Shown here: positions 31,345 to 64,000 of the stretch, piece after piece
Numbering within the stretch: the stretch's first letter is position 1
Layout: each line of letters starts with the position of its first letter
From: an uncultured Candidatus Saccharibacteria bacterium
GTDB lineage: Bacteria > Patescibacteriota > Minisyncoccia > Phycocordibacterales > UBA9973
NCBI GenBank assembly: GCA_964484005.1
Contig: CAZADR010000001.1
Coordinates: 43,927 to 107,926, forward strand
Length of the DNA: 64,000 nucleotides
Direction of reading: 5' to 3'
Notes under the pieces: model-generated
What the model saw: only the letters and a program-made list of their open reading frames with translations
Told to the model about the DNA's origin: nothing
Database searches by the model: none
Translations under genes and position numbers: made by a program

Positions 31345-31354
31345 TAGATAATTT

Positions 31355-32711: not shown

Positions 32712-33101
32712 ATTTTATAGAAGATTATATGGAAAAATTAAAACAATACAAATATATAATTTTAATAGTATTGCTAACTTTTGGGTTTGTTTTTTATTGG
32801 TATGAATGGAGACCACACGGAATATAACAAATCACGCAAGAAGAAGTAATTATTATTTAATGTTATAATATAACTATGAAAAACAAAACCCCAACAACAC
32901 GAGAATTAGTAGATAATACATATATTGATTCTGCGTTGCGTGGACTTAAACGTCTTTTAGATGACGACTTTAGGGATGGTAAAATTAGTGAAACTGAATA
33001 TAAAAAACGATCAGATAAATTTACAGAAGCTATAAACGCCCCAGAATAACCCTAGAAATAGGTTTTTTTGATGGGCTAGAATCTGTTGGAATTAAATATA
33101 A

Positions 33102-33653: not shown

Positions 33654-33680
33654 ACTTTATTAAAATGATTCTCTGATAGT

Positions 33681-35345
33681 TTAATACGCTAAAAGTGACT
33701 TTATTTCAGCCAATGCTATACTAGGAAAAGGATATTCTTCGAGCCAATTTATAGTTCGAAAGTCGTCCACAATACCGAGCAATGTTTTGTATTTATAGTC
33801 AAAATCAGACTTTTGTATTGGAGATACAAGGCTTTTTTGTAGTTCGTAGACTTCATTTAGCTTAGGAATCCATTCAAGCAGATATTTGCATGCTAAATTG
33901 TAATTTGGCTTTATTTCATTTACGTTTTGTGCGAAGTTCGTAAATAATTGAGCAAACAATAACCTCTTTTCATCTGTAAGTGCTTGCTCGTAAATTTCTT
34001 TAGCCTTGAAAGCTAATTCGTGGATTATTAAACGCAACTCTTGGTAATCATCGCTTTGGCTAACAACTTTTTCAAGCGTAGATTCAAGGGCATCTTCTTC
34101 AGTTTTACATTCAGCAATCTTTCTTTCGCAATATTCAAGTGGTACTTCTTTGTTTATTGTTGCCTCAAAATATTTATCTTTCTGTTTTCTTATGCTTGTG
34201 AGTAGCCCATTCAGTCTTTGAATTTCAGTTTCCCTTAACTTCACATTCTCAGCATTTTCTTCCAAGATAATTCCTTCAATCCATTTTAGTACCGCTTCAT
34301 TCTTAGGGGCTATTTTAAAGAATACGGGGTCTACCTGCTTTTCTACTTCTTCCTCCTTGATATAGGTCTTTTTGGTGCAATGACGAGATTTTAAGTGGTT
34401 ATTACAATGTCCATAAAGAATACCTTTTTGTGTTTCCCAGCTCAATACTCCGCCACAACCATCACAAAAGATTTTTCCTTGAAATAAATAATTGTGCTTG
34501 GTGGTAATAACATTTTTACCTCTTCTTTTAAGAACACTTTGTGCTTTCTCAAATAAGTCTTTGGTAATTAAAGGCTTGTGTTTTGCTGGGTATATTTCAC
34601 CTTTCCATTTCATTTTGCCATAGTAGAATGGGTCTTGAAGTAATTCATAGATTCTACTTTGTAAAACTTTATTTCCATTTGTTGAACGAAGCCCCGTTTT
34701 ATACATTTCATCCTCAAGACTTTGTATAGAATAGTTTCCCGTAGCATATAGCTCAAACATTTTTCTAATATGCGGAGCAACCCCATCATCAATCACATGT
34801 ATTTTGTGTCCTTTGTCCCCAATAGTTTTATATCCAGTTGGTGGTTTGGTTGGCAACCATCCTTGTGCTATTTTTTCTTTCTGCCCCTTTTTCACTTCTT
34901 CGGAAAGGTTAGCTATATATTTCTTTGCAAGAACAATCTCAATATCCCAACGAAATTTTTCGTCCGATTTGGCATACTTGTGTATTACAAGGTTCTGCTT
35001 AACAAAGTGAAGCTGTCTTTCTTCATTAGCCTCAATCCAATCATTTGCTACGACTGCTTCCTTGAGGTTTCTGGTGAGTCGGTCAACTTTTTCACACAAA
35101 AGAATTTGAATATTATTTTTTCCCATATAGCCCATCATTTCAGCAAAGATTTTTCTTTGTTTTGTTCCACTTGCAGATTCTGCAACAGAAAAAGGTTTTG
35201 CCACTTCAAAACCTTTTCTATTTGCATATTCAATTAGTAATTTTTCTTGCGAGGGAAGCGAGTACCCCGTATCCTCTTGTTCTTTTGATGATACACGGCA
35301 ATAAATAACGGCTTTATTCTTTGTGTTTTTTATTTGAGTTTTCAT
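33681..35345 (-). CDS. Large serine recombinase (integrase), copy 2, full length
   Basis: VIYCRVSSKEQEDTGYSLPSQ...DRLTRN, roughly 60-70% identical to copy 1 over the catalytic domain. An internal site at 33777-33795 repeats the copy-1/tRNA junction sequence. Confidence 0.85.
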   Translation of the reverse strand: MKTQIKNTKNKAVIYCRVSSKEQEDTGYSLPSQEKLLIEYANRKGFEVAKPFSVAESASGTKQRKIFAEMMGYMGKNNIQILLCEKVDRLTRNLKEAVVANDWIEANEERQLHFVKQNLVIHKYAKSDEKFRWDIEIVLAKKYIANLSEEVKKGQKEKIAQGWLPTKPPTGYKTIGDKGHKIHVIDDGVAPHIRKMFELYATGNYSIQSLEDEMYKTGLRSTNGNKVLQSRIYELLQDPFYYGKMKWKGEIYPAKHKPLITKDLFEKAQSVLKRRGKNVITTKHNYLFQGKIFCDGCGGVLSWETQKGILYGHCNNHLKSRHCTKKTYIKEEEVEKQVDPVFFKIAPKNEAVLKWIEGIILEENAENVKLRETEIQRLNGLLTSIRKQKDKYFEATINKEVPLEYCERKIAECKTEEDALESTLEKVVSQSDDYQELRLIIHELAFKAKEIYEQALTDEKRLLFAQLFTNFAQNVNEIKPNYNLACKYLLEWIPKLNEVYELQKSLVSPIQKSDFDYKYKTLLGIVDDFRTINWLEEYPFPSIALAEIKSLLAY

Positions 35346-35521
35346 TTAGTTAGATTCTTGCCTACAAAGTTTTTAAAGGTTTTCTTGTCTATTCTGTATT
35401 CCTTGCCAAATTTATATGCTTTAAGTTTCCTTGCCCTTATATATCGGTAAATAGTTATTATATTTAGCTTCAGTATTTCCGCTAATTCTTCGGCTGTATA
35501 GAATTGCTCTTTTTTTCTCAT
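35342..35521 (-). CDS. Excisionase-family HTH protein (59 aa) overlapping the start of recombinase 2 by 4 nt (ATGA); not in the supplied ORF track
   Basis: Minus-strand translation MRKKEQFYTAEELAEILKLNIITIYRYIRARKLKAYKFGKEYRIDKKTFKNFVGKNLTK shows the Xis/MerR-like HTH_17 pattern (TxxEAAExLGVSxxTIYRxIxxGKLPAxRxGRxxRI). Confidence 0.5.
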   Translation of the reverse strand: MRKKEQFYTAEELAEILKLNIITIYRYIRARKLKAYKFGKEYRIDKKTFKNFVGKNLTK

Positions 35522-35580
35522 GTTCCAATTTTATCATACTGGACTTTTCTATACAACCAAAGTTATCCACATTTACCTTA

Positions 35581-35763
35581 TCACGCAGGCAAAGTATTTT
35601 TCTCCTCCTTCTTAAGGCGTTGATAGATACCAAACAGAGTTAAATAATAATTAGCCACTCCATTGGCAATTTCAGCCACTTCCTGTTCAGAATAATTCTC
35701 AAAATCAACATGGTCTTTGTGAATCTCCTTGAATTTATTTATTTGTTCCTGTCGCAGTTCCAT
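35581..35763 (-). CDS. Small hypothetical protein (60 aa)
   Basis: ORF only. Confidence 0.25.
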   Translation of the reverse strand: MELRQEQINKFKEIHKDHVDFENYSEQEVAEIANGVANYYLTLFGIYQRLKKEEKNTLPA

Positions 35764-35961
35764 GTTTAGTTTCTAATTTACTTTTGACGCCCCATTGGGG
35801 GAAACTGACCAGATAGTTTTATCTTTACATCACCACATAATATTATTTGGCTGAACAAGGGGATATATTCTCTGTCCAGAATATAAAATCTTTACAGGTT
35901 CATCTGTCCGAAGGATAGATGAATAATATCAATTATTATATGTGTATATTATTTGTGTATA

Positions 35962-36207
35962 CTATCTGGTATTGGTTGGCTGTTCTTCACTTAACGAGTT
36001 AATGGTTTCAACAAAGTCTTTGTCATTCTCTACAACGCTGAAAGCTTTTTCAGTAACGGTGTACCATTTTGTTTTGTCATATCCGTGTTTATTGAACCTT
36101 CCAGTGTCTATGTATGATTTCTTTTTGAGATTGTCTAAAATTCGTCTAATTGTTGCTATTGTCCAAAAAGAATATTGCTCTTTAAACTTAAGTACAGAAT
36201 TAAACAT
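35962..36207 (-). CDS. Small winged-HTH-like hypothetical protein (possibly RepA_N/DnaD-like)
   Basis: SFWTIATIRRILDNLKKKSYIDTGRFNKHGYDKTKWYTV. Weak resemblance only. Confidence 0.3.
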   Translation of the reverse strand: MFNSVLKFKEQYSFWTIATIRRILDNLKKKSYIDTGRFNKHGYDKTKWYTVTEKAFSVVENDKDFVETINSLSEEQPTNTR

Positions 36208-36478
36208 CCAATATTTACCTTGATAATAGTGATATTCACTCTTTTTTCTTTTGTTGAGATTAACCTAAAAATATATGTTGCTGAACATAATGGCTTCCTC
36301 AACGCCAACATCTTTTGCCACACTTTCACTAAAATAATATTTTTTTATATCATTGTTTTCCATATGTAATTAATGCTTTATGATGTAAACTATGCTTTTC
36401 TTTTTTCGTTTCTACATACACATCATTTAAGCTCATTTTTATTGCTTATAATAAAGAGGAGCTTCAAAAACAGGTACG

Positions 36479-36694
36479 CTACAACATGTCTTTTGTTAGG
36501 TCGTACAAATATTTTAATATTTGCCCCTTTTCGTCTTTTGCATACTCTTCCTTATCAACTAATTTGTTAAAATATCTTCTAATTCTATCTCTACTGAACT
36601 TTTTTCCACGTACTGTGTTGGCAAAACAAGTAAATGACGACCAGAAAGGGTTTTTCCTCTGAATATATTCAAATCTTCTTTTTATACTTCTCAT
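36479..36694 (-). CDS. Small basic hypothetical protein
   Basis: ORF only. Confidence 0.25.
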   Translation of the reverse strand: MRSIKRRFEYIQRKNPFWSSFTCFANTVRGKKFSRDRIRRYFNKLVDKEEYAKDEKGQILKYLYDLTKDML

Positions 36695-36843
36695 TATTTT
36701 ATTAGTTATTAATATTTCTCTTAACTAGACTGGGAAATCAGTCCAAGCAGTAGTTTTTGTTACGACATAATAAAATCACCACTTCTATGATTATAGAAAG
36801 TGGTATATATACAATTTACAATATTGTAAAAATAGGATGTGGA

Positions 36844-37578
36844 TTAATGCACATTAAACCTCCAACTTGAGCTTTTATAACTTCCATCAAGTTCTTCTCT
36901 CATAAAAACTTTATCAGAGTAAAGAGGCTTTTTTAGTTCTTTGTTTAAATCGGATATATATTGACGAAGCGTTTTCTCTCTTTGCTTTGATTGCATTCCT
37001 AATATATCGTAAATCTCTTCCTCTCCCACTGTTTCGTATTCTGCTTCAATGAAAATTTTACATAATTTCTTTAATCTTTTTGGTAAGGTAATGATTTCAT
37101 CATGAATTCTTATCGTATCATCATTATAAAGCTCCAAATCCCCAACACTTTTTTCCCTCATAGGTATTCGTAAAGATAAATCAATGCCACTCTTATATAA
37201 GATTTCATCTGTCTGTTTTAATGTTAAAACACTTTTAAAAGACTGTTTGTATTTTCTTAATTTCTTTAAATTTACATTTATATAGGTAATAACAAAATCA
37301 TCAGTTTCAATACGGCTTCCGTCTTCATTATATATTGACCCCTTAGAATAATCGGACATGGCTGGAATAGGTGTTCTTGAAGTCATTTTTAAGATTTTTT
37401 GTTCTTCTAAATTCAATAAAAATGAAATGCATTCTGAACTCGGTAATTTGAATTCCCAAGTCATTAATTCATAGCCCCCTCTAGGATTATTTTTTCTACT
37501 TTCTTTTGGATAAAGAAGAACTTGCTCCTCAATAAAAGATAAAATTCTTAAACACTCTACGAATTTCTTCTGCTCCAT
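36844..37578 (-). CDS. Hypothetical protein (244 aa), element cargo
   Basis: ORF only. No motif recognised. Confidence 0.4.
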   Translation of the reverse strand: MEQKKFVECLRILSFIEEQVLLYPKESRKNNPRGGYELMTWEFKLPSSECISFLLNLEEQKILKMTSRTPIPAMSDYSKGSIYNEDGSRIETDDFVITYINVNLKKLRKYKQSFKSVLTLKQTDEILYKSGIDLSLRIPMREKSVGDLELYNDDTIRIHDEIITLPKRLKKLCKIFIEAEYETVGEEEIYDILGMQSKQREKTLRQYISDLNKELKKPLYSDKVFMREELDGSYKSSSWRFNVH

Positions 37579-37883
37579 TTCTAGATTGTATTACAAAAAG
37601 TTCTAAAATCCCACCATTTTTCAGATGAGTATATTCGGTGTATCCTCTTTCATTTGGGTGTCCTCCCCCCGTACCCCTTATCAAATAAGAATATTACTAA
37701 TAGTAAATATTAAAATATAGATGTCGTAATGTAAGCTGTATTTGCTTATAGAAAGGCTATAACAACCTCTTTAATGGTCTATAAACACGCTATAAACCCT
37801 TATTGATGGTAAATTTATAGAAAGGTGCTATTATTGTTTTATAACTTAATATAAGAGTAGCCTAAACTTTTGTAGACAAAAGC

Positions 37884-37999
37884 ATGGTGAACGAAGTCAG
37901 GTAATGCATAAAAAACCCTTCATGGGGTCGCATTACCTGCCGTACAGGGAAACTTGTATGAGAGACTTAGGTCTCTACCCGTGAGGGGCTTTTTGTTTG
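37884..37999 (+). ncRNA. Candidate structured RNA element B, homolog of element A
   Basis: Same architecture as A with covarying stems: aggtaatgc/gcattacct, cagg-gaaa-cttg, agagac/gtctct, then gggctttttgtttg. Confidence 0.35.
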
Positions 38000-38040
38000 C
38001 CAATTACGGAAATTATTAATGATAAACAAAATACAAATAT

Positions 38041-38232
38041 ATGGAAAAGGAAACTTTTGGTCAATTCTTGGGTCGTAACTGGTGGCTGTTGCTTATTAGT
38101 TTTATTCACATGCTGAGGAATGGTGAAGATTTTACAGGAGGCGAGAAATTATTACTTTTTATCATTACTGGTGGAATAATAATATTTCTAATGTTTCTTT
38201 ATTGGTCTTATCAAAATAAGAAAAATAATTAA
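38041..38232 (+). CDS. Small membrane protein
   Basis: ORF with 2 transmembrane helices. Confidence 0.3.
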   Translation: MEKETFGQFLGRNWWLLLISFIHMLRNGEDFTGGEKLLLFIITGGIIIFLMFLYWSYQNKKNN

Positions 38233-38237
38233 TAATT

Positions 38238-38666
38238 ATGAAAAGAACACAAAGTATATTTTTAATTTTAATTGGAGTTGCTGTTTTAATTTTTACAATC
38301 TTTTATATCTCAAAAGAAGATACGAAAGATTTATTGGCAAAACAAGAGAGTTGCGTTAAGGCTTACGAAAAAATGAGTGCTGAAGCTCCAAAATCAAGTT
38401 TAGACAACGAAGGAATGATGACTGTTTCAAACCATGCCTTGTATAGTCAAACACAAAAAAGCTGTGTTGAAACTTTATATGTAAGCACTCTTTCTTTTAA
38501 AGACAAAAAACCTGAAGCAAAAGGTTATTTTTCAATAAAAGATATTTATACGGGAGAAGTTTATTTCGTTAAATTATTTACAAATGATACTGAAAGTAAA
38601 GATGTGGAAGCTTGGTATAAGTCAAAACTGAACGAATTAAAAACGTTTGGTAGTGATGAAAAATAA
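38238..38666 (+). CDS. Small secreted / lipoprotein-like hypothetical protein
   Basis: Signal peptide. ORF only. Confidence 0.4.
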   Translation: MKRTQSIFLILIGVAVLIFTIFYISKEDTKDLLAKQESCVKAYEKMSAEAPKSSLDNEGMMTVSNHALYSQTQKSCVETLYVSTLSFKDKKPEAKGYFSIKDIYTGEVYFVKLFTNDTESKDVEAWYKSKLNELKTFGSDEK

Positions 38667-38706
38667 GAAACTTATTAGATTTATATTATTAGTTAAAAAA
38701 ATAATT

Positions 38707-39066
38707 ATGAATAAATATATATTAAGCATGTTTGTATTAGTCGGTTTATTGGTTAGCGTAAACAACATCTACGCAAAAACTGTGCCTAGTAATCAAGTAA
38801 ATGCAATTGTAAAGATATTAAAAACTCTAGGTATAGAAAGTGGAAAAATAAGCGAGATAAAAAAGATATTGGAGGACGACAACATTACTACCCCCGTTAA
38901 AAACTACAGTCCAAACACAGGAAAAGAAATTATTCCTGAACCCAAAATAGAGGCTACTGGTTGTGAAAATAACTACAAGTTTAATATAAAAACTGGTCAA
39001 CCATGTTCAAGTTATAAAGCACCAACACCTCAGAAATGTTCTGGTTGGTGTCCCGCAAGTGCATAA
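38707..39066 (+). CDS. Small secreted Cys-containing hypothetical protein
   Basis: Signal peptide MNKYILSMFVLVGLLVSVNNIYA. C-terminal Cys pairs. Confidence 0.4.
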   Translation: MNKYILSMFVLVGLLVSVNNIYAKTVPSNQVNAIVKILKTLGIESGKISEIKKILEDDNITTPVKNYSPNTGKEIIPEPKIEATGCENNYKFNIKTGQPCSSYKAPTPQKCSGWCPASA

Positions 39067-39131
39067 ATAAAGATTGATTTTCCTAGTAAAAGTTGTAATA
39101 TCAAAATATTAGTAATAATCTCTAATATTAC

Positions 39132-39626
39132 ATGGAAAATACACCAAAGGATGACTGGTTTAAAAAGGCAATAGCTATAGCAATTCTACTCATAGGAGCC
39201 TCTGTGTTTTATTATTTTATTATTTTTCTTCCCTCAGAAAAAAGGGCTGAAAAAGATAAAGAAGCACAAAAAGAACAAGCTCTTGAAGCAAAAATAGCAG
39301 AAGAAAATTTAAAAGAAGAAGAGAGAAAACAAAATCTCCAAATATGTTTAGAAGAAAGCGAATACCAAACAACCTCTTCTCATTTATGGCTTTGTTCAAG
39401 CATAGGGAGAACTGAAAAATCTTGTGGGGAAGTTTTTGCTTCATCAAAAAATGTTTTTGATTCCTTAGCAAACTATAGGAGAATTTTCGGGGTTGAAAAA
39501 ACTGTTGATGACTTTGATGGGTTTTCAGAAAAATGTAATTGCGGGTTAGAAAAATACAGGAGAGATGAGTTTGCAGTAGAAAAAAAAGAAAGAGACGATA
39601 TTTGTTTTAAAACTTACGGAAATTAG
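39132..39626 (+). CDS. Membrane-anchored coiled-coil protein with a Cys-rich C-terminal domain
   Basis: Transmembrane helix, a K/E coiled-coil, and 6 Cys in the C-terminal half. Confidence 0.4.
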   Translation: MENTPKDDWFKKAIAIAILLIGASVFYYFIIFLPSEKRAEKDKEAQKEQALEAKIAEENLKEEERKQNLQICLEESEYQTTSSHLWLCSSIGRTEKSCGEVFASSKNVFDSLANYRRIFGVEKTVDDFDGFSEKCNCGLEKYRRDEFAVEKKERDDICFKTYGN

Positions 39627-39627
39627 T

Positions 39628-39858
39628 ATGAAAAAAATAAAAGAAATTTTAATAAAACTAAACGATTGGAAGTTTATTATTCTGATAATATTTATCCTTG
39701 GTAGTGCTTTTTATTGGTATGAGTTGAGACCAATACAAGAAAAAAAGGATTGTTTTGAAATGGCGAAAGAGTACGTTGTGGAAACAAAGGATTCTGGTAA
39801 TATAGAAGCCAGATTTAATAATGTTTTTGATTTATGTTTAAAGAAGAAAGGGTTATAG
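39628..39858 (+). CDS. Small membrane protein
   Basis: ORF with one transmembrane helix. Confidence 0.3.
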   Translation: MKKIKEILIKLNDWKFIILIIFILGSAFYWYELRPIQEKKDCFEMAKEYVVETKDSGNIEARFNNVFDLCLKKKGL

Positions 39859-39866
39859 TAAAATAT

Positions 39867-40220
39867 ATGAAAAAGATAATCCTCACGTTAATAATCCTAG
39901 CTCTAACTATCCCTGTTATTTCTTTTGCTCATTCTGGTAGGACTGATTCTTCGGGCTGTCATACTTGCCGTACAAATTGCCCTAATTGGGGTCTAGATTA
40001 TGGAGAATATCATTGTCATAGGTCAAAAGGCGTTGCTCAGCCTCTAGAGCCAGTTAGAAGCATTAGAAATGAAGGTGGTGTGGGACAAACTGTTCCAGCC
40101 CCTGAATATAAAATTCCAGCCAATACTGTAAATACGCCAGCAATAAATACAACTCCAACGCCCTCAACCCAAACAGAAAAAAAGAGCTGGATTGTAAGAT
40201 TTTTTAGCTGGTTGTTTTAA
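39867..40220 (+). CDS. Small secreted His/Cys-rich protein
   Basis: Signal peptide. HSGRTDSSGCHTCRTNCPNWGLDYGEYHCH is a metal-binding-like motif. Confidence 0.4.
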   Translation: MKKIILTLIILALTIPVISFAHSGRTDSSGCHTCRTNCPNWGLDYGEYHCHRSKGVAQPLEPVRSIRNEGGVGQTVPAPEYKIPANTVNTPAINTTPTPSTQTEKKSWIVRFFSWLF

Positions 40221-40230
40221 GTAAAATTTT

Positions 40231-40638
40231 ATGAAAAAAATTTTAAAATATTTTGGATTCATTATTTTGGTTCTTATTGGATTGTTTTTATTTGTTGCTA
40301 ATTTTTCTTCTATCAAATCAAATTTTCAATGCTCTGGTAAAATAACCTATCAAGAGACAACAGAATCAAAAACTATTTATATTATATTAGAAGAATATAG
40401 ATGGTGGGTAGGTCTTTGGGGTGATTCAGATGGTAATATGAAACTAGAAATTCCTAATGAGGATTTTGATTATTTTGATTCCATATTAGAAAATGGTAAT
40501 CTGCTTTCTATCTTTAAAACTTCTTATAATCCAAACCCAGAAAAAAAACTAGTTGGAAATTTTTCAACACTAAGTAAAACGTTAGATTTAGATACATCCT
40601 TTGGTGTTTTTAGTGGTTCTTGTAATATTATTAATTAG
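40231..40638 (+). CDS. Small secreted / membrane-anchored hypothetical protein
   Basis: N-terminal transmembrane helix or signal peptide. Confidence 0.4.
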   Translation: MKKILKYFGFIILVLIGLFLFVANFSSIKSNFQCSGKITYQETTESKTIYIILEEYRWWVGLWGDSDGNMKLEIPNEDFDYFDSILENGNLLSIFKTSYNPNPEKKLVGNFSTLSKTLDLDTSFGVFSGSCNIIN

Positions 40639-40646
40639 ATAAATTT

Positions 40647-40895
40647 ATGAAAAATAAAAAATTAATTATTATAATTCTGATTCTTTTAGTAGTAGGCGGA
40701 ACATTTTTTTATCTGACCAAGACATGCAATCCGCCATTTATTAAAGGGAATATTAATAGTGAGGGTGAAAAAATTTATCACATACCAAGCGGACAATTCT
40801 ATGACAAAACCATAATAGATAGAAGTGCGGGCGAAAGGTGTTTTATCTCAGAAAAAAGAGCTATCTATTCTGGCTGGAGGGCTTCATCAAAATAG
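40647..40895 (+). CDS. Small secreted hypothetical protein
   Basis: N-terminal transmembrane helix or signal peptide. Confidence 0.35.
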   Translation: MKNKKLIIIILILLVVGGTFFYLTKTCNPPFIKGNINSEGEKIYHIPSGQFYDKTIIDRSAGERCFISEKRAIYSGWRASSK

Positions 40896-40942
40896 AGATA
40901 ATTATATTTAACATACATAGGACAATGTGATAAAGTTCGTAG

Positions 40943-42502
40943 ATGCCACCGAATAAAGACCAAAAGGTAAAACTAACTTTTTCAGACTATTTTAATATCC
41001 CAAAAGAAACTTTAAAACAAGAGGGCTATTTTGATATTTCCCTCGCATCAGATTTACCAGTTTTTATTGACCCTTTTCACCTTTTTTATAGCAAAAAATT
41101 GGCTTATAAAAAACTTCACGAAGATATAATTAAATATCTAATTTTTCTCAAAGAAACTTCAAAAAATAATGGAAATAAACTATCAAACGGAATGATTGAG
41201 GAATACTATAGTTTTCATGAAGTAGAACAGACATGGTTAGGTTTTAGTGTTAAAGACAATAAGGGGCATGGGCTAGGAAAAAAGTTTGCTAAAGCACTTA
41301 ACGCAAATTTTAATGCCATGTTTGATGATTTTGGTGTTGGCATTAGTTCCCATCATCTTGAAAAGCTTACTCTTGTTTCAGATAATGTTGGCAAGGATAC
41401 TATCAGTGATTTTACTACGAATTTAATTTTAGGATACCTTGCTAAAGAAACAGAAAAATTTACCTTAAAACATATTGAAGAAAAACAAAGACAAAAATTT
41501 GCAGTTGAAAAAGCCGAATTTGACTACGAAGATAAAACTTGGACATCAAAAGTATTTACTTTACCAATATTCAATCAAGATTTTGTTTTGTTAACACCAA
41601 TAGATTTATTAACTAAAGATGAAACATGGATAAATAAAAATGAACTGCTTGATAAGTTTTCAGAAATCCCTTACTCTATTTCTAACCAAGCCCTAAGAGA
41701 AAAACTTTCTAGGTATTTTCAATCAAGAATTATTACTAATTCACCAAGCAAGATAGATAAAAAAACTGGCAAGGAGGTTATAAACATAACTCAAAAATCA
41801 AAGAGAATTTCAGCAAAAGAAACCATAACAGAATTCCCAGAGGCTATAGATTACTATATTAAAAAGAAAGAAGAAAATGGAGAACAAGCAATTAAGGGTG
41901 GGCTTGAAAAAGTTGCAGAAACCCGACAATTTGTTGAAGAGCAGTTTAGAGATTTTGCCACACTAGTTGAAAGCCATGGTGGTTTAAGCACAAAAAGACC
42001 CTCTTCTTTTGAAGAATCTCTAAAAGCAAGTCTTTACTTTAAGGAATGTGTTGAACTGCACGATGGATATAAAAATTTATATTACAAAGATTCTGTTTCG
42101 GGTCTAATTCCTCATGATGAACCCTCAATACAAAGATTGTATTGGTTTGTTTGGAACGGAAATTCAAGTGATTTAAACAAAGAAGTTTCAAATGGCTTGG
42201 GAACTGTTGACTACACAGCCTCTAATGGCAAAAAGGATAAAACACTTATTGAATTTAAGCTTGCTAGTAGTGGCTCTCTGAAAGATAATTTAAAAAATCA
42301 GCTAGAAAAGTATAAAGAAGTAAACAAAACAAAAAAAGGAATATGGATAATAATATTTTTTACTGCTGACGAAGAATTTAAATTAAAAACAATTCTTAGG
42401 GAACTTGAAATGGATAAAGTGGAAGGTATTATTCTTGTGGACGCAAGGTTAGATAACAAAATTACTGCGTCAAAAATCAAATCTTTAAAATCCAATGAGT
42501 AA
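40943..42502 (+). CDS. Hypothetical 519-aa protein, first gene of a two-gene operon with an Mrr-cat-like nuclease
   Basis: No recognised domain. The C-terminal segment GTVDYTASNGKKDKTLIEFKLA could be a PD-(D/E)xK-like motif. It overlaps the next gene by 8 nt. Confidence 0.45.
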   Translation: MPPNKDQKVKLTFSDYFNIPKETLKQEGYFDISLASDLPVFIDPFHLFYSKKLAYKKLHEDIIKYLIFLKETSKNNGNKLSNGMIEEYYSFHEVEQTWLGFSVKDNKGHGLGKKFAKALNANFNAMFDDFGVGISSHHLEKLTLVSDNVGKDTISDFTTNLILGYLAKETEKFTLKHIEEKQRQKFAVEKAEFDYEDKTWTSKVFTLPIFNQDFVLLTPIDLLTKDETWINKNELLDKFSEIPYSISNQALREKLSRYFQSRIITNSPSKIDKKTGKEVINITQKSKRISAKETITEFPEAIDYYIKKKEENGEQAIKGGLEKVAETRQFVEEQFRDFATLVESHGGLSTKRPSSFEESLKASLYFKECVELHDGYKNLYYKDSVSGLIPHDEPSIQRLYWFVWNGNSSDLNKEVSNGLGTVDYTASNGKKDKTLIEFKLASSGSLKDNLKNQLEKYKEVNKTKKGIWIIIFFTADEEFKLKTILRELEMDKVEGIILVDARLDNKITASKIKSLKSNE

Positions 42503-43337
42503 AAAAACAAAAGAAGAAGAGGTAGATGAAATAAAACAAAAAAGTGGGCATGGGCTTCATCTTAAAGTTGCCAACTATCTTGAATCTAAGGGTTGGGAAG
42601 TTGTTATTGGTCAATATTATATTGATATTGCAACTGGTTTATCTCGTGATTTAGATATACTTGCGACAAAGTATTTTCCAATAGCTGATAGCGGTACAAA
42701 CCTAAGAATTCGCTTTTTTATTGAATGCAAATATGTAGAAAATATAAATGTTGTTTGGTTCACACCAAAAGATTTAAAAAAGTCGCAGGCTCTTATTGCG
42801 GATACTGGTTTAATGAGAGGAAGTGAAGAACATGAAATGCGTATTGCAAATCCAGCAAGTTATATGCCTCTTTATCATCATTATATGGAAAATTCTCCTG
42901 TGGCTAAATTAACTGATAAAAAAGGTCAACAAGACATATTCTATCAAGGTGTTAATAGCTCTGTTCATGGAATGATTGCATTAAGAAACACTAACTACGA
43001 AAGGTTCAGTTTTGATTATCCAGTAATAGTTTTTGATTCTTTTGAGAAAATATTCCGTGCGACTGAAGACAATAAAAATATAGAAATTACTGAAAATTTT
43101 CAACGAGCCATTGATTACTCATATAAGCAAGAAGACCAGCTCAAAAGTAAGTATTTTATAATTGACATTGTGTCTTTTGAGTTAATAGACTCATTTTTAG
43201 AAAACATAGAAAAAGCGGATGTAGAGATTATGAAAAGTAAGGCATTCTCTCAGATTAAGGAAGAAAGATTTCAAGAAAGAATGCATAATATAAATAGGTA
43301 TTCTAATGATGACCCCTTTAATGATTACGGTATTTAA
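42495..43337 (+). CDS. Restriction-endonuclease-fold (Mrr catalytic-domain-like PD-(D/E)xK) protein
   Basis: GHGLHLKVANYLESKGWEV ... RDLDILA ... FIECKY matches the Mrr_cat pattern (G.G..E..L...G..V ... D.DI.A ... (Q/E)CK). Confidence 0.5.
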   Translation: MSKKTKEEEVDEIKQKSGHGLHLKVANYLESKGWEVVIGQYYIDIATGLSRDLDILATKYFPIADSGTNLRIRFFIECKYVENINVVWFTPKDLKKSQALIADTGLMRGSEEHEMRIANPASYMPLYHHYMENSPVAKLTDKKGQQDIFYQGVNSSVHGMIALRNTNYERFSFDYPVIVFDSFEKIFRATEDNKNIEITENFQRAIDYSYKQEDQLKSKYFIIDIVSFELIDSFLENIEKADVEIMKSKAFSQIKEERFQERMHNINRYSNDDPFNDYGI

Positions 43338-43436
43338 CTTTTTGTGGATTAAGTAATATATTATTAATGGGTGTGGGGTAATACTATTTAACAATAGAAA
43401 GTAATTTGTGTATTTGTTGTAAAGAAACAGAGGGGA

Positions 43437-44045
43437 ATGGGAAAACCTCTTCCCATTTTATCGTTCGTAAGCTATACTTCCAAGCGAGCAGAGAGAAAAT
43501 ATCTAAATAAATACTTAATTTTACAAAAGTGGTATAATTTTTCTATGGCAATAGAAAATAAAGCTTTTCTTTTATATGTTCGGAATTTTATTTTTGGGGC
43601 AGAAGATAGTCTGGTATCTACTGTTGGTCTGTTGGCTGGGGTGGTTTCGGCTGGGATGGCTCAAAGTGAAATATTGATTTCAGGTATAGTTTTAATTTGC
43701 GTAGAAGCATTTTCTATGTCGGTGGGAAGTTTTTTATCTGAGAGGACGACCGAAGAGTCTTGTATTGGGTACGAGGAGAAAAATAGTAATTCTTTACTAG
43801 CCTCTATAATTATGTTTTTTTCTTATTTTGTATGCGGGATGATTCCTTTATTTCCTTACTTTTTTATTTCAATTAATCTTGCTTTTTGGTGGTCTATATC
43901 TTTGAGTCTTGTTTCTTTGTTTGTTTTAGGTTTTATAAGTGCAAAGATTTTAAAAACTAAAATACTAAAAAGTGCTATCAGGATGATGCTTATTGGTGGA
44001 CTAGCGATAGGGCTGGGAGTCTTGGTGGGTATGATTATGAAATAA
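43437..44045 (+). CDS. VIT1/CCC1-family (DUF125) membrane protein; true start possibly the internal Met near 43542
   Basis: GAEDSLVSTVGLLAGV...EAFSMSVGSFLSE and a C-terminal transmembrane bundle, typical of VIT-family iron/manganese transporters. Confidence 0.55.
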   Translation: MGKPLPILSFVSYTSKRAERKYLNKYLILQKWYNFSMAIENKAFLLYVRNFIFGAEDSLVSTVGLLAGVVSAGMAQSEILISGIVLICVEAFSMSVGSFLSERTTEESCIGYEEKNSNSLLASIIMFFSYFVCGMIPLFPYFFISINLAFWWSISLSLVSLFVLGFISAKILKTKILKSAIRMMLIGGLAIGLGVLVGMIMK

Positions 44046-58925: not shown

Positions 58926-59321
58926 ATGCAAATAAATTTACAGGGTAAGAATTTTGAATTAACAGATGCTATCAAGGATTATGTTTTAAAAAGAGTAACC
59001 AATCTAGAAAAATTACTTTCAAGCATAGAGGAAAAAGGCGGAGAAGTGTTGGTAAACTTTGAGGTTGGTAAAAGCACCAATCACCATAAATCAGGAGATG
59101 TTTTTCATGCAGATTGTTTGATTAATATAAATGGTGAGAAGTTTTATTCTAGTTCAGACCAAGAAGATATTTATCCAGCTATCGATGAGATTAAAGAGAC
59201 TCTCTTTAATGAAATTAGAAAAAACAAAGATCGCAAACAAACTTTGTTTAAGCGCGGAGCAGCGAGTGTAAAGAAAATGTTAAAAGGTCTTTCTGGTAGA
59301 AACCCTTTTACTTCTAAATAG
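58926..59321 (+). CDS. hpf: Ribosome hibernation promoting factor / RaiA family
   Basis: MQINLQGKNFELTDAIKDYVLKRV is the HPF N-terminal signature. Confidence 0.85.
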   Translation: MQINLQGKNFELTDAIKDYVLKRVTNLEKLLSSIEEKGGEVLVNFEVGKSTNHHKSGDVFHADCLININGEKFYSSSDQEDIYPAIDEIKETLFNEIRKNKDRKQTLFKRGAASVKKMLKGLSGRNPFTSK

Positions 59322-60195
59322 TATTCTTTAGAAAATCTTCGTATTTTTTTTCTTTTTTACCCTCAGGGAGAACTTTTTTGATTATAAATTGCTCGTTTTT
59401 CAATACTGCATCAGTAATGATTATTCTTTTGTCATTTACAAAAAAGAATGTTCGGGGCCAGGTGGAGTAAGCTCTGAACTTATTATAGTTTAATTTTGCA
59501 TCAGCGTTTAAGTCTATCAAGCCGTCTTCTTTTTTTATTTTTTTACAAAAAGTAGCCCGTGTCTCGTCTTGGGCAACAGGTACAATTTTTCCATTTATAA
59601 AGTCTGGTAAAATCCTTAGCAACAATTCTCCGCCAATCTTTATCAATCTTTCGCGGAACTCGGAAGCTTTTTCTTCTGGGAAAATATCTACTTCTTCTGT
59701 TCCAATAATTGGCCCAGAGTCCATCTTATATTCCATCTTTTGGATAGTGATTCCTGTCTCTGTGTCGCCGTTTAGAATTGCAGACTCTACTGGGGATGCT
59801 CCGCGGTATCTAGGGAGAAGGGAATAGTGGATGTTTATAGAGCCGAGCTTGGGCATATTTATTATTTCTTCAGGTATTATTTTTCCGTAAGCGACGACCA
59901 AGAAGAAATCTATGTTTCCCCCAAAGAAGGACTTCGGGGAGTTTCCCCGAAGTCCTTCTTTGGGGATGTGATCTTTTAATGTTTCTGGCTGAATGTAGGG
60001 AATGTTGTTTTCTTGTGCCCAGACTTTGACAGGAGGGGGAGTTAGGAGCATCTTACGGCCCTGGGGCTTGTCTGGTGAAGTAATAATGAGTGATGGCATA
60101 TATCCATTTTCTTTTAGAATATCTAGGGTTTTAGAGGCCACATCTGGAGTACCCCAAAACACAAAATTTAATTTTTTAGTTGTTTTATCCATCAT
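59314..60195 (-). CDS. fmt: Methionyl-tRNA formyltransferase
   Basis: FVFWGTPDVASKTLDIL, a SLLPRYRGASP-like motif, and position downstream of def. Confidence 0.9.
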   Translation of the reverse strand: MMDKTTKKLNFVFWGTPDVASKTLDILKENGYMPSLIITSPDKPQGRKMLLTPPPVKVWAQENNIPYIQPETLKDHIPKEGLRGNSPKSFFGGNIDFFLVVAYGKIIPEEIINMPKLGSINIHYSLLPRYRGASPVESAILNGDTETGITIQKMEYKMDSGPIIGTEEVDIFPEEKASEFRERLIKIGGELLLRILPDFINGKIVPVAQDETRATFCKKIKKEDGLIDLNADAKLNYNKFRAYSTWPRTFFFVNDKRIIITDAVLKNEQFIIKKVLPEGKKEKKYEDFLKNTI

Positions 60196-62087: not shown

Positions 62088-62636
62088 TTATTGTTTATAA
62101 TCTCCAGGCAAAACATCTATATTACTGATAGGCAATAAACGTAAGAATGCTTTTCCTGAAATAAGGTTCATTTTTACTGCTCCCCAATATCTGGAATCTG
62201 AGCTGGCACTTCGGTTGTCTCCCATTACAAAAAATTCATCTTCTTTTAAAACAAAATGTGTATCGTTGTTGCCTATATTTTTAACATAAGGTTCTGTGAG
62301 AACAAAACCTTCTTTTTGATCGGCATTAGTGATGGTCACCATGTTGCCCTTGATATCTATGGTTTCATTTGGTAAGCCGATTATTCTTTTTATAAAGAAT
62401 TTGGTTGTGTCACCAGGATACCTAAATACCACAACATCATCTCTTTTTGGATCAGTTAATTTGTAAGATATTTTATCTACTATCAAATAATCACCGTTTT
62501 CAAACGTTGGTACCATTGAAGAACCTGAGACCACAAATGGCTCAGCTACCAAAACACGAATAGGTATGACGATAATAAGCGCGATTATAGCAAAACGCAC
62601 GAGTTCCCAAAACGATTGTCCTTTTGTTTGTTCCAT
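62088..62636 (-). CDS. lepB: Signal peptidase I
   Basis: SGSSMVPT (Ser box), KRIIGLPNE (Lys box) and GDNRSASSDSRYWG. Confidence 0.85.
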   Translation of the reverse strand: MEQTKGQSFWELVRFAIIALIIVIPIRVLVAEPFVVSGSSMVPTFENGDYLIVDKISYKLTDPKRDDVVVFRYPGDTTKFFIKRIIGLPNETIDIKGNMVTITNADQKEGFVLTEPYVKNIGNNDTHFVLKEDEFFVMGDNRSASSDSRYWGAVKMNLISGKAFLRLLPISNIDVLPGDYKQ

Positions 62637-62698
62637 GCTTATAATATAACATAAAAAACTCTTGACAGCATGTCACAGATTGTTTTGTAATAAATAAC

Positions 62699-62744
62699 CC
62701 CCCGCACCAGGTGAAGGGGAATTCCCCTTCACCTGGTGCGGGGG
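62699..62744. repeat. Perfect 46-bp GC-rich palindrome (23-bp arms) centred on GAATTC, in the divergent lepB/pth intergenic region
   Basis: cccccgcaccaggtgaaggggaa | ttccccttcacctggtgcggggg. No mismatches across the arms. Confidence 0.9.
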
Positions 62745-62770
62745 AGCGTCTGTGTGTTATTATTCATTCT

Positions 62771-63310
62771 ATGAAATTAGTTGTTGGATTAGGAAATCCT
62801 GGAGAAGAATATGAAAACACAAGGCACAATACGGGGCGTATTTTAGTTGATTTAGTGGAGAAAAAAATAGAACAAAACAACAGTAAGCTTAAAATAAAAT
62901 TTCTAAAACCAGATACTTTTATGAATCATTCTGGTAAAGCTGTGGCTCCTTTTATAAAAACAAAAAAAGATTTAGAAAATCTGGTTGTGATTTATGATGA
63001 CATAGATTTACCACTTGGAAAAATAAAGATTTCCTTCAATCGTTCTTCGGGTGGACACAACGGACTTGGCTCTATAATCAAGGCTTTGAAAAGCGAAGAA
63101 TTTTTGCGTATTAGAGTCGGTATTGCACCTGCGACTCCGTCTGGAAAACTAAAAAAGCCATCAGGTGAGAAAGCTGTATTAAATTTCTTATTGGGTGAAT
63201 TCAAAAAACCAGAATTAGAAACAATTAAGAAACTTTCCAAAACAGTTGCTCTTGCTGTAGAAACTATTTTTTCTGAGAGCAAAGAGAAAGCGATGTCACT
63301 TTATAATTAG
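62771..63310 (+). CDS. pth: Peptidyl-tRNA hydrolase (start moved to MKLVVGLGNPG; the longer ORF reads through the palindrome)
   Basis: MKLVVGLGNPGEEYENTRHNTG and FMNHSGKAV are Pth signatures. Confidence 0.9.
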   Translation: MKLVVGLGNPGEEYENTRHNTGRILVDLVEKKIEQNNSKLKIKFLKPDTFMNHSGKAVAPFIKTKKDLENLVVIYDDIDLPLGKIKISFNRSSGGHNGLGSIIKALKSEEFLRIRVGIAPATPSGKLKKPSGEKAVLNFLLGEFKKPELETIKKLSKTVALAVETIFSESKEKAMSLYN

Positions 63311-63315
63311 ATTTC

Positions 63316-63789
63316 ATGAAAGATCCCCAAAAGACACTTAATTGGATTGTTGATATTTTTAAGAAAAATAATATACCTTTTGTTATTACTGGTGGTCTCG
63401 CGGCAAAAAGCTATGGATCACCAAGAGAATTAAATGATATTGATATAGATATTCATGATAAAGATTTGTATTTAATTTCTGAACAGGTTAAACCTTATAT
63501 TGTTTTTGGTCCAAAAAAATACAAAGATGAACGATGGGACTTATTGCTTTTGATGTTAAATCATGAAGGACAAGATATAGATATTAGTGGTGGAGATACT
63601 TTAAAAATATGTGATGCGAGATCTGGGGAATGGGAAGTTGATACAACTGATTTTTCTGATGTTGAAAAAAGAGACATTTTTGGAATTCAAGTTCCAGTAA
63701 TATCCAAAAAAAGACTTATTGATTACAAATCTATGTTAGTTGGAGAACACCAAAAAATAGATATTAAAGCGATAGGTGAATGTAAATAA
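63316..63789 (+). CDS. Nucleotidyltransferase-fold protein (ANT(2'')-like / MJ1651-like), uncharacterised
   Basis: ITGGLAAKSYGSPRELNDIDIDI resembles the GG.A....G..R...D.D nucleotidyltransferase motif. Confidence 0.45.
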   Translation: MKDPQKTLNWIVDIFKKNNIPFVITGGLAAKSYGSPRELNDIDIDIHDKDLYLISEQVKPYIVFGPKKYKDERWDLLLLMLNHEGQDIDISGGDTLKICDARSGEWEVDTTDFSDVEKRDIFGIQVPVISKKRLIDYKSMLVGEHQKIDIKAIGECK

Positions 63790-64000
63790 TTAGATTTCCT
63801 TGATGGCTTCGATGATGATGCTTTTTTCGCCGTTTTTGTTGGAGATTTTTCCTGAAAAAGCGATGCACTTTTCAGGTACCAATATGTCTATGCTTTCTTT
63901 GAAGATGGAAGGGAAGGCGACAGCTTCGATGGAGTCGGTGAGGTCGGCTATTTTAAGAAATGCCATGCGTTCGTTGTTTTTGGTGACTACTTGCCTAGAG
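63790..64000 (-). CDS. dnaE: 3' fragment of the DNA polymerase III alpha subunit (C-terminal OB-fold region); the gene continues beyond the window
   Basis: The minus-strand frame open to the window edge translates ...VVTKNNERMAFLKIADLTDSIEAVAFPSIFKESIDILVPEKCIAFSGKISNKNGEKSIIIEAIKEI*. This matches the DnaE C-terminal RMAF..LED..G.iE.vvFP pattern. Confidence 0.55.
   Translation of the reverse strand, partial: SRQVVTKNNERMAFLKIADLTDSIEAVAFPSIFKESIDILVPEKCIAFSGKISNKNGEKSIIIEAIKEI

What the first reader, a model, noticed from the sequence alone, without database searches (positions are those of the whole stretch)
62699..62744. Perfect 46-bp GC-rich palindrome centred on GAATTC between the divergent lepB and pth genes
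The 23-bp arms, cccccgcaccaggtgaaggggaa / ttccccttcacctggtgcggggg, have no mismatches. This is extremely unlikely by chance in AT-rich DNA. The palindrome is not positioned as a terminator, because the two genes diverge from it. It could be an operator for a dimeric regulator coordinating lepB and pth, a cruciform-forming element, or a miniature inverted-repeat insertion. The longest pth ORF artificially reads through it.
Basis: seen in the sequence. Interest (0 to 1): 0.5.

Follow-up and report, generated by a model that had tools for sequence, protein, structure and literature searches.

The report
Dispersed perfect-palindrome hairpin insertion, not operator
The 46-bp perfect palindrome is real, but it is a lineage-specific insertion of a small hairpin-forming element that turns up at unrelated places in other ultra-small (CPR) bacterial genomes, not a control site shared by lepB and pth.

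Summary
In detail: 62699-62744 is a perfect 23+23 bp palindrome with no loop, 70% GC in a 35% GC genome. It is identical in three independent assemblies. The organism is a Candidatus Nomurabacteria (CPR) bacterium.

The operator idea fails. The two closest relatives (HisS 97% identical) lack the palindrome. Among 52 related species only one distant one (L043) has a version at this site. Five more copies, all perfect, lie in unrelated contexts in metagenomes (rplN|rplX, upstream of rplC, near ssb, dksA-like|metK, near ftsK).

Across the seven copies, six stem positions vary. Every change is mirrored in the other arm, with no G·U pair and no mismatch.

The palindrome belongs to a discrete class of GC-rich perfect palindromes with 21-26 bp arms. 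Each arm is itself a small quasi-palindrome. Members sit in 2-13-nt intercistronic spacers, in promoter regions, and in frame inside genes; a second copy is inside fmt at 59919-59965.

Best reading: a selfish or neutral REPIN/RPE-like hairpin element, inserted in the only permissive stretch between the distal and proximal pth promoter elements. I infer that hairpin-templated copying keeps the arms identical. How it moves is unknown.

The parts
62699..62744 (.). 46-bp perfect palindrome (family A), 23-bp arms, no spacer, centre GAATTC
   Evidence: identical in L001, L002 and L005
62699..62721 (.). Left arm. It is itself a quasi-palindrome (CCCC-CG-CACC-A-GGTG-AA-GGGG, 8 of 10 positions self-complementary).
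   Evidence: P=0.003 against shuffles; folds alone at -9.2 kcal/mol
62722..62744 (.). Right arm, the exact reverse complement of the left arm
62663..62668 (+). TTGACA, conserved -35-like hexamer of the distal pth promoter (P1). TTGAC is present in 51 of 52 related intergenic regions.
   Evidence: promoter role inferred, not mapped
62686..62691 (+). TGTAAT, -10-like hexamer of P1, 17 nt after TTGACA. The predicted start is about 62697-62699, so a P1 transcript would begin with the hairpin.
   Evidence: sequence; the TTGAC-N(16-19)-T[AGC]TAAT/TAnTAT-like pattern occurs in 25 of 52 species; inferred
62755..62763 (+). TGTTATTAT, extended -10 (P2), 7 nt before the pth ATG. It predicts a leaderless pth mRNA that does not contain the palindrome.
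   Evidence: TGnTAnnAT lies 5-8 nt (6-7 in all but two) before the ATG in 41 of 52 species; inferred
62771..63310 (+). pth (peptidyl-tRNA hydrolase), true start MKLVVGLGNPG
62088..62636 (-). lepB (signal peptidase I)
62643..62651 (-). TGTTATATT on the minus strand, an extended -10 6 nt before the lepB ATG. The palindrome leaves it untouched.
   Evidence: sequence; inferred
62689..62698 (-). GTTATTTATT tract that follows the hairpin on the minus strand (terminator-like configuration)
   Evidence: no other terminator-like site on either strand in 63000-64000
59919..59965 (-). Second palindrome of the same architecture (22-bp arms, 3-nt loop, CCCC...GGGGA|TCCCC...GGGG), in frame inside fmt. It encodes PKEGLRGNSPKSFFGG.

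Best explanation
The palindrome is one copy of a dispersed family of short (43-52 bp) GC-rich perfect palindromes found in Nomurabacteria and related CPR genomes. Each element is an inverted doublet of a ~21-24-nt quasi-palindromic unit (X X' X X'). It can therefore fold as one long 21-26-bp hairpin or as two small hairpins.

Here it is a lineage-specific insertion into the only permissive stretch of the lepB|pth control region. That stretch lies downstream of the distal pth promoter (TTGACA-N17-TGTAAT) and upstream of the proximal extended -10 (TGTTATTAT-N7-ATG). The lepB promoter and the proximal pth promoter are left intact.

Shown here: the element is an insertion relative to close relatives, it is dispersed across unrelated contexts, it has the nested architecture, and its arms vary only symmetrically.

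Inferred: it behaves as selfish or neutral DNA, like REPINs, Rickettsia palindromic elements and mitochondrial hairpin-forming repeats. Its two arms are kept identical by intrastrand template switching during replication; any change in one arm is either erased or copied to the other. Locally it puts a 5'-terminal stem-loop on P1 transcripts and a terminator-like hairpin on minus-strand read-through, while pth can still be expressed as a leaderless mRNA from P2. The agent that moves it is not identified.
For: (1) Insertion. L143 and L147 (HisS 97% identical, Pth 92% and 87%) have a 96-97-nt intergenic region with the same flanking promoter motifs, but ~22 nt (GTATTGGGGCAAATTAAAATTG) where the window has AAATAAC + 46 nt + AGCGTCTG. 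Of the 120 best Pth homologues, only the window's own carries a palindrome-encoded N-terminal extension.

(2) Patchy at this site. Among 52 species only L043 (HisS 85%, more distant than more than 30 species that lack it) has a version, with three substitutions per arm, all mirrored.

(3) Dispersed. An exact scan for the 18-nt core found five more copies with perfect 23-26-bp arms. They lie between rplN and rplX, 8 nt upstream of rplC, near ssb, between a dksA-like gene and metK, and near ftsK. L105 and L116 share an identical 46-mer in different contexts and in contigs of different GC content.

(4) Strict arm symmetry. All 161 cells of the 23-bp core are Watson-Crick. Six pairs vary, all by changes on both sides, none on one side only. 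The covariation score is 0.205 against 0.100 in shuffles and at most 0.079 in slid controls.

(5) Discrete class. Perfect-arm lengths in 949 kb of Nomurabacteria DNA are bimodal, with a second mode at 22-26 bp (11 cases). Dinucleotide shuffles reach at most 12-13. A mismatch-tolerant scan found 9 perfect and 0 imperfect GC-rich hairpins with arms of 21 bp or more.

(6) Nested architecture. Every arm tested is self-complementary.

(7) Behaviour of an insertion element. Members fill intercistronic spacers that are 2-13 nt long in other species (hisS-def in L042 and L054; lepB-hisS in L056). They also lie in frame in coding sequence (fmt in the window, L031 and L050; a 790-aa ORF in L083). The fmt site carries three different inserts in the three closest genomes.

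(8) Permissive site. At least ten other species carry unrelated GC-rich hairpins at the same place in the lepB|pth spacer.

(9) Template switching is documented to create perfect stems and to keep them paired (PMC8794818, PMC7202029).
Against: Copy number is low. There are two same-architecture palindromes in about 72 kb of this genome, and their sequences differ. Only seven family-A copies were found in all, despite a scan of 241 million metagenome records. That is unlike REPs or MITEs.

There is no target-site duplication and no conserved flanking motif. No Y1/RAYT or DDE transposase is encoded in the 64-kb window; the rest of the genome was not searched.

The insertion boundaries against L143 and L147 are not clean, because the whole spacer has diverged.

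The narrow arm length (21-26 bp) and the frequent position 8-15 nt upstream of a start codon could instead reflect a selected RNA function. Template switching is inferred from the pattern, not observed.
Confidence: 0.62

Rival explanations
1. It is a selected RNA hairpin. Examples would be a 5'-terminal stabiliser of the pth leader, an RNase III processing or stability element between cistrons, or a translational insulator, recruited repeatedly because a stem of about 22-26 bp is what the RNA machinery recognises.
For: All intergenic copies lie in transcribed spacers. Several end 8-15 nt before the next ATG. The predicted P1 start puts the hairpin about 2 nt from the 5' end. Arm lengths cluster at 21-26 bp, about two helical turns. 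Pairing is maintained by double-sided changes.
Against: There is no G·U pair among the 161 core pairs or in the outer, search-unconstrained parts of the copies; RNA-level selection normally tolerates wobble. The element is absent from the closest relatives with the same gene order. Same-architecture palindromes sit in frame in coding sequence, where cleavage would be harmful. No Rfam family matches; the best is 33 bits against a gathering score of 90, a generic miRNA hairpin.
Confidence: 0.15
2. It is a purely local product of replication template switching: an inverted duplication of a pre-existing small hairpin at this spot. It is not mobile, and its similarity to other copies is convergent.
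For: The arms are perfect, and each arm is a quasi-palindrome. L011 has a single small hairpin (CCCCAAAC-TAG-GTTTGGGG) at the same position. The window's terminator-like palindrome at 2800-2839 shares CCCCCACCAG/CTGGTGGGGG with the outer part of this one. Long AT-rich terminator hairpins in these genomes are also perfect zero-loop palindromes. The literature shows that such events create perfect stems (PMC8794818).
Against: Near-identical 46-mers (20-23 of 23 arm positions) occur in unrelated contexts in other organisms. Two copies are identical over the whole 46 nt. Convergence cannot plausibly produce that. No single-unit copy of the family-A arm was found in the held loci.
Confidence: 0.12
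3. It is an intrinsic terminator or insulator acting on the minus strand. It would stop read-through from the convergent dnaE (antisense to pth) before it reaches the lepB promoter.
For: The consensus scan flags the hairpin plus GTTATTTATT on the minus strand. No other terminator-like site lies between the dnaE stop (63790) and the palindrome. The orf157 and dnaE stops abut, at 63789 and 63790.
Against: The closest relatives have the same convergent layout but no hairpin there. The L043 copy has no T tract in the lepB direction. A 23-bp stem is about twice the G+C core (~8-11 bp) of this genome's ordinary terminator hairpins at 2800-2839 and 23735-23778. Other family copies sit inside operons, where termination would be harmful.
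Confidence: 0.06
4. It is an operator bound by a dimeric regulator that coordinates lepB and pth.
For: It has dyad symmetry and lies between divergent genes.
Against: It is not conserved with the gene pair, being present in 2 of 52 species and absent in the closest relatives. It lies downstream of the shared -35 region, outside the lepB promoter. Copies occur at ribosomal-protein, ssb and metK loci. Sequence varies while complementarity is kept. At 46 bp it is far longer than usual operators.
Confidence: 0.03

Closest known systems
REPINs / REP sequences (REP doublets forming hairpins, mobilised by RAYT transposases; PMC3116915, PMC3337134)
   Same: The basic unit is a short imperfect palindrome, and two units in inverted orientation form a longer hairpin. 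Copies are mostly extragenic and lack target-site duplications. In most family-A copies the arm foot even reads GTAG/CTAC.
   Different: There is no spacer between the two units, and the doublet is a perfect palindrome. Copy number is very low and the copies within one genome differ in sequence. Some members lie in frame inside genes. No RAYT gene was found in the window. The window's own copy has GCGG instead of GTAG. The hosts are CPR bacteria.
Rickettsia palindromic elements (RPEs) and other prokaryotic MITEs (review PMC10969869)
   Same: These are selfish palindromic insertions in a reduced genome. They are tolerated in intergenic DNA and, in frame, in permissive loops of essential proteins. 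Here the fmt loop is the example.
   Different: RPEs are about 100-150 bp imperfect palindromes with many copies per genome (from memory). Here the elements are 43-52 bp, perfect and low-copy. No terminal inverted repeats flank an internal segment; the element is nothing but the two arms.
Mitochondrial repetitive hairpin-forming elements and double-hairpin elements (sponges, fungi; PMC2800124)
   Same: Both are short perfect hairpins (15-18-bp arms in sponges), single or double. They are scattered in intergenic regions and inside genes, and patchy among close relatives. That pattern has been interpreted as repeated invasion of compact genomes. No function or transposase is known.
   Different: Organelle genomes versus free bacterial chromosomes. 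Many mitochondrial elements are AT-rich and occur in tens of copies per small genome. There is no sequence relationship.
Quasipalindrome correction / template-switch mutation (PMC8794818, PMC7202029)
   Same: This mechanism creates perfect reverse-complement stems and fixes mismatches in existing ones. It would give exactly the all-or-none mirrored substitutions seen here.
   Different: It is a mutational process, not an element family. On its own it does not explain near-identical copies in unrelated loci of different organisms.

Membership tests
REPIN / REP | Unit is a short imperfect palindrome; two units in inverted orientation fold into a larger hairpin | tested here: met
   Each 23-nt arm is self-complementary at 8 of 10 positions. 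The second arm is the exact reverse complement of the first. There is no spacer, unlike described REPINs.
REPIN / REP | Tens to hundreds of near-identical copies within one genome | tested here: not met
   The arm matches nothing else in the 64-kb window, even with 3 mismatches. The only other same-architecture palindrome, at 59919, has a different sequence. Only about 72 kb of the genome was available, so this is a limited test.
REPIN / REP | A cognate RAYT (Y1 HUH transposase) gene in the genome, usually flanked by REPs | tested here: inconclusive
   Pfam scans of about 48 window proteins found no Y1_Tnp or DDE transposase. The rest of the genome could not be searched.
REPIN / REP | Conserved GT(A/G)G tetranucleotide at the hairpin foot (from memory) | tested here: inconclusive
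   Five of seven family-A copies read ...GGTGTAGGG(G) and L088 reads GTGG. The window copy reads GGTGCGGGGG.
MITE (transposase-derived) | Terminal inverted repeats plus target-site duplication | tested here: not met
   The element consists only of the two arms. No duplication and no common flanking motif appear in the seven copies.
Rickettsia-type palindromic elements | Palindromic insertion found both between genes and in frame within protein-coding genes | tested here: met
   This holds for the class, not for this copy. fmt carries one in the window, L031 and L050, and a 790-aa ORF carries one in L083. A peptide search found no family-A copy translated inside proteins.
Intrinsic terminator | G+C-rich stem followed directly by a U tract, located downstream of a gene on that strand | tested here: inconclusive
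   Minus strand: the stem is followed by GTTATTTATT, but the nearest upstream minus-strand gene is dnaE, about 1 kb away. Plus strand: no U tract adjacent to the stem. The feature is not conserved in relatives.
Operator of a locus-specific regulator | Conserved with the regulated genes across related species | tested here: not met
   Present in 2 of 52 species and absent from the two closest relatives.
Known structured RNA (Rfam 15) | Match at or above a family's gathering score | tested here: not met
   No match at gathering threshold. The best sub-threshold match is mir-7143, 33 bits against 90.
TIGR array (TIGR-Tas, PMC12045711) | Tandem 36-nt units with edge and loop repeats, next to a Nop-domain Tas gene | tested here: not met
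   This is a solitary palindrome with two ~23-nt units. The neighbours are lepB and pth. The array description was read.

The most novel reading that the evidence does not exclude
Nomurabacteria and related CPR bacteria may carry a previously undescribed kind of mobile DNA: 'perfect-palindrome double-hairpin elements' with a discrete arm length of 21-26 bp. These elements insert without target duplication into promoters, into 2-13-nt intercistronic spacers, and in frame into essential genes. They move between organisms, and their two arms evolve in strict concert. On this reading they are recognised and mobilised by an as yet unidentified hairpin-specific enzyme, rather than arising passively.
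Probability: 0.3. Interest if true: 0.65.

Novelty: new variant of a known kind. Interest (0 to 1): 0.45.

Why it matters
CPR bacteria have tiny, tightly packed genomes that are usually thought to hold little repetitive or selfish DNA. These data show otherwise. Their 2-13-nt intergenic spacers, their promoter regions and even a loop of the essential Fmt protein are repeatedly colonised by several kinds of hairpin-forming inserts, and the inserts turn over between genomes that are 97% identical in HisS.

The strictly mirrored evolution of the arms is an unusually clean natural example of concerted change in a stem: 161 of 161 core pairs are Watson-Crick, and six positions vary by double-sided changes only. 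It is a useful test case for template-switch mutagenesis in organisms with reduced repair repertoires.

There are practical consequences. These palindromes break k=31 assemblies. They also mislead gene callers, as in the 20-residue false N-terminal extension of Pth.

Tried and rejected
- Assembly artefact: rejected. The palindrome is identical in three MEGAHIT assemblies, and Logan contigs break inside it.
- Known RNA family: none.
- Phage origin: no blastn match in 50,697 phage records.
- TIGR array: rejected after reading the description.
- Transposase in the window: none. Only two large serine recombinases were found, in a separate low-GC island.
- Target-site duplication or conserved insertion motif: none seen.
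- Single-unit (half) copies of the family-A arm: none in 149 held loci.
- Protein-level census of translated family-A palindromes: the first query was too short. The 61-aa query found 2 word-sharing candidates and no scored hit.
- Extending the genome leftwards by looking up the first window protein: not on record.
- My first pattern for the class used gaps that were too long and found nothing. It was corrected.
- My first Pth query in the sandbox started at 62773 instead of 62771. The Pth identities printed are therefore off-frame and should be ignored. One search gives the correct values. The intergenic sequences carry two extra bases (AT of the ATG) for the same reason.

Full report
**1. 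The observation**

Positions 62699-62744 are a perfect palindrome: CCCCCGCACCAGGTGAAGGGGAA|TTCCCCTTCACCTGGTGCGGGGG. The arms are 23 nt each, with no spacer, and the centre is GAATTC. Allowing three mismatches, the arm matches only itself in the window, against 0.01 expected. The arms are 70% G+C, in a stretch of 34.5% G+C. The hairpin alone folds at -49.6 kcal/mol as RNA and -29.4 as DNA.

The palindrome lies in the 134-nt spacer between lepB (62088-62636, minus strand) and pth. The longest pth ORF (GTG 62711) starts inside the palindrome, and the public gene call uses that start (199 aa). The conserved start is the ATG at 62771.

The same 46-mer is in three independent MEGAHIT assemblies. Three k=31 Logan contigs end inside it, which is how a de Bruijn graph behaves at a true perfect palindrome. 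So the feature is real.

**2. Organism and local architecture**

A scan with HisS returned 80 loci. Many are titled Candidatus Nomurabacteria or Paceibacterota, some carry other or generic CPR labels, and their HisS is 77-90% identical to the window's. The order pth<>lepB-hisS-def-fmt is conserved.

I aligned the lepB|pth spacers of 52 species and found a common skeleton:
- On the lepB side there is an extended -10 (TGTTATATT on the minus strand) 6 nt before the ATG.
- Next comes a near-invariant TTGAC(A), present in 51 of 52.
- In 25 of 52 a -10-like hexamer follows 16-19 nt later (17 nt in the window).
- Then comes a hypervariable stretch of 0-200 nt.
- Last is TGnTAnnAT, 6-7 nt before the pth ATG in 41 of 52.

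In the shortest spacers (64-70 nt) the TTGACA and the proximal -10 form one ordinary promoter.

I infer two points from this. First, both genes are expressed as leaderless or nearly leaderless mRNAs. Second, the only stretch that can accept extra DNA is the one between the distal -10 and the proximal -10. The palindrome sits exactly there, 7 nt after TGTAAT and 10 nt before TGTTATTAT. A transcript from the distal promoter would start about two bases before the hairpin. A transcript from the proximal promoter would not contain it.

**3. It is an insertion, not a conserved control element**

A protein search with Pth found closer relatives than the species set. I fetched their contigs. L143 (HisS 97%, Pth 92%) and L147 (HisS 97%, Pth 87%) have the same promoter motifs. 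However, they carry about 22 nt (GTATTGGGGCAAATTAAAATTG) where the window has AAATAAC, the 46-mer and AGCGTCTG.

Among the 52 species only L043 has a version at this site: TCCCCTACACCAGGAGAAGGGGAA|TTCCCCTTCTCCTGGTGTAGGGGA. L043 is more distant than more than 30 species that lack it. At least ten other species carry unrelated G+C-rich hairpins at the same spot. Of the 120 best Pth homologues, only the window's own has a palindrome-encoded extension.

**4. It is dispersed**

One exact scan of the metagenome collection for the 18-nt core GAAGGGGAATTCCCCTTC gave 56 stretches. Most are unrelated short hairpins. Five are clearly the same element, each with perfect arms of 23-26 bp, in low-GC contigs. 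Their contexts are unrelated to lepB and pth:
- between rplN and rplX (L124);
- 8 nt upstream of rplC (L116);
- near ssb (L105);
- between a dksA-like gene and metK, directly followed by TGTTATACT-N7-ATG (L142);
- near ftsK (L088).

L105 and L116 share an identical 46-mer although their contigs differ in context and in G+C content.

**5. Mirrored evolution of the arms**

I aligned the seven copies and counted pairs.
- In the 23-bp core all 161 cells are Watson-Crick.
- Six pairs vary, and each varies by a change on both sides.
- There is no one-sided change, no G·U pair and no mismatch.
- The covariation score is 0.205, against 0.100 in shuffles (0 of 500 reach it) and at most 0.079 when the partners are slid.

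The outer 14-17 bp of each arm in the metagenome copies were not constrained by the search, so their perfection is an observation, not a selection effect.

Complete absence of wobble intermediates is not what RNA-level selection usually gives. It is what a DNA-level copying process gives. Intrastrand template switching is documented to create perfect stems and to repair existing ones (PMC8794818, PMC7202029). I therefore infer, but have not shown, that the arms are homogenised in this way.

In keeping with this, long hairpins in these genomes are generally perfect. Of the 29 hairpins with at least 16 pairs, 20 have no mismatch, including ordinary AT-flanked terminator hairpins.

**6. A discrete class with a nested design**

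I scanned 949 kb (the window, 80 species loci and two close relatives).
- Perfect-arm lengths fall off from 10 to 15 bp, are rare at 16-21 bp, and show a second mode at 22-26 bp with 11 cases. Dinucleotide shuffles never exceed 13 bp.
- Nine of the eleven are G+C-rich. The mismatch-tolerant scan found no imperfect G+C-rich hairpin with arms of 21 bp or more.
- With the metagenome copies, including a second one in L088, there are 15 such elements.
- They fall into sequence subfamilies: CACCAGGTG (this one), GTCAGAC, GATAGCGCCTTAGGC and CCCAAAG. A related family, GTTGGACAYCTG, has shorter arms of 17-20 bp.
- In every case each arm is itself significantly self-complementary. The element is therefore X X' X X'. 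It can form one long hairpin or two short ones; for this copy the two short ones fold at -9.2 and -9.8 kcal/mol. The long register is the one kept perfect.

**7. Where the class sits**

The hisS-def and lepB-hisS spacers are 2-13 nt in most species. In L042, L054 and L056 they are filled by 44-49-nt palindromes that abut the stop codon and end 8 nt before the next ATG.

Three species, the window among them, carry such a palindrome in frame in a variable loop of Fmt. The window's copy is at 59919-59965 and encodes PKEGLRGNSPKSFFGG. L083 carries one inside a 790-aa ORF.

The Fmt site holds three different inserts in the three closest genomes. This is the behaviour of insertion elements that survive only where they do no harm.

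**8. What I could not find**

- No target-site duplication or common flanking motif.
- No transposase in the window.
- No known RNA family.
- No phage match.
- No translated family-A copies in the protein collection.
- No single-unit copies.

Copy number is low, which is the main weakness of the mobile-element reading.

**9. Verdict**

The palindrome is real and far beyond chance. Its most likely identity is a lineage-specific copy of a dispersed, REPIN/RPE-like family of perfect double-hairpin insertions in CPR bacteria. It is tolerated here because it falls between two pth promoter elements and outside the lepB promoter. A dedicated operator role is not supported.

Possible local side effects remain untested. 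One is a 5' stem-loop on distal-promoter transcripts. Another is a terminator-like hairpin on the minus strand, where it is followed by GTTATTTATT and is the first such signal downstream of dnaE.

The closest analogues are REPINs (PMC3116915), Rickettsia palindromic elements (PMC10969869) and mitochondrial hairpin-forming repeats (PMC2800124). It differs from all of them in being a perfect, spacerless, low-copy doublet with a fixed arm length. I rate it a new variant of a known kind, of moderate interest.

Noticed in passing
window 59919-59965 (inside fmt, 59314-60195, minus strand); L143 2545-3465; L147 2527-3468; L012, L013, L015, L036, L053 and others: One loop of Fmt, between QPEKL and (D)LFxVVAYGK, is an insertion hot spot. 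The window has a 47-nt perfect palindrome there. L143 and many other species have a ~100-nt in-frame element that folds into a long stem with two inner hairpins (-45 to -69 kcal/mol for the excised fmt segments), encoding motifs such as LRTLGRSDGDGQRKFSAENFRGEQN. L147 has a third kind. The three closest genomes thus carry three different inserts.
   Followed up: partly
window 62637-62770 and the lepB|pth spacers of L007-L086: Both divergent genes have an extended -10 (TGnTAnnnT) 6-7 nt before their ATG; for pth this holds in 41 of 52 species. They share a near-invariant TTGACA/TGTCAA between them (51 of 52). This suggests leaderless mRNAs and back-to-back promoters in Nomurabacteria.
   Followed up: partly
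window about 25000-43500: A low-GC (0.30-0.32) island lies next to tRNA-Asn (25023-25095). It has two large serine recombinases (25083-26642 and 33681-35345, both minus strand), many ORFs without Pfam matches, and two LOOT RNA matches (30165-30293 and 37859-37976). It is probably an integrated mobile element or prophage.
   Followed up: no
L003, L004, L006 (Logan contigs): k=31 assemblies end inside the palindrome. Perfect palindromes longer than k fragment such assemblies at exactly these sites.
   Followed up: yes
window 62711-62770; protein P0001: The public gene call for Pth starts at GTG 62711 within the palindrome. This adds 20 spurious residues (MKGNSPSPGAGERLCVIIHS). Several relatives have similar false extensions read through other hairpin inserts (P0041, P0061).
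   Followed up: yes
hisS-def and lepB-hisS spacers of L013, L017, L022, L025, L027, L029, L033, L046, L050, L053, L070, L083 and others: Other families of small hairpin inserts fill the normally 2-13-nt intercistronic spacers. One is CCCAGTAG...CTACGGG, which overlaps the lepB stop codon in six species. Another is a MITE-like AATCCCGTTAGA...TCTAACGGG element, also seen in lepB|pth spacers. Others are repeats of ctaggttctag and CCTCCCCCT...AGGGGGAGG nested in ACCCCT...AGGGGT.
   Followed up: partly
window 2800-2839 and 23735-23778: Ordinary bidirectional terminator-type hairpins here are also perfect zero-loop palindromes, with 20- and 22-bp arms that include their A/T tracts. The one at 2800 shares CCCCCACCAG/CTGGTGGGGG with the outer part of the 62699 palindrome.
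   Followed up: partly
window 63789/63790; L143 6537-6540: dnaE converges on orf157 and pth with no spacer. In L143 pth and dnaE overlap by 4 nt. No terminator-like signal lies between them, so antisense read-through of pth seems likely.
   Followed up: partly
window 63316-63789; L147 6582-6947: The gene downstream of pth is variable. In the window it is a 157-aa protein with a borderline Pfam match to aminoglycoside-2''-adenylyltransferase (nucleotidyltransferase fold; 23.5 bits against a cut-off of 21). In L147 and L148 it is a DUF559 (Vsr-like endonuclease) gene. L143 has nothing there.
   Followed up: no
window 11905-15906: A 1333-aa protein with a Peptidase_S74 (endosialidase chaperone) domain lies in a stretch of higher G+C (0.42-0.44) than the rest of the window.
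   Followed up: no
L088 840-913: Immediately upstream of the L088 family-A palindrome, the flank (gtgcccccacacctg) repeats the first ~12 nt of the arm. This may be a partial third unit.
   Followed up: no
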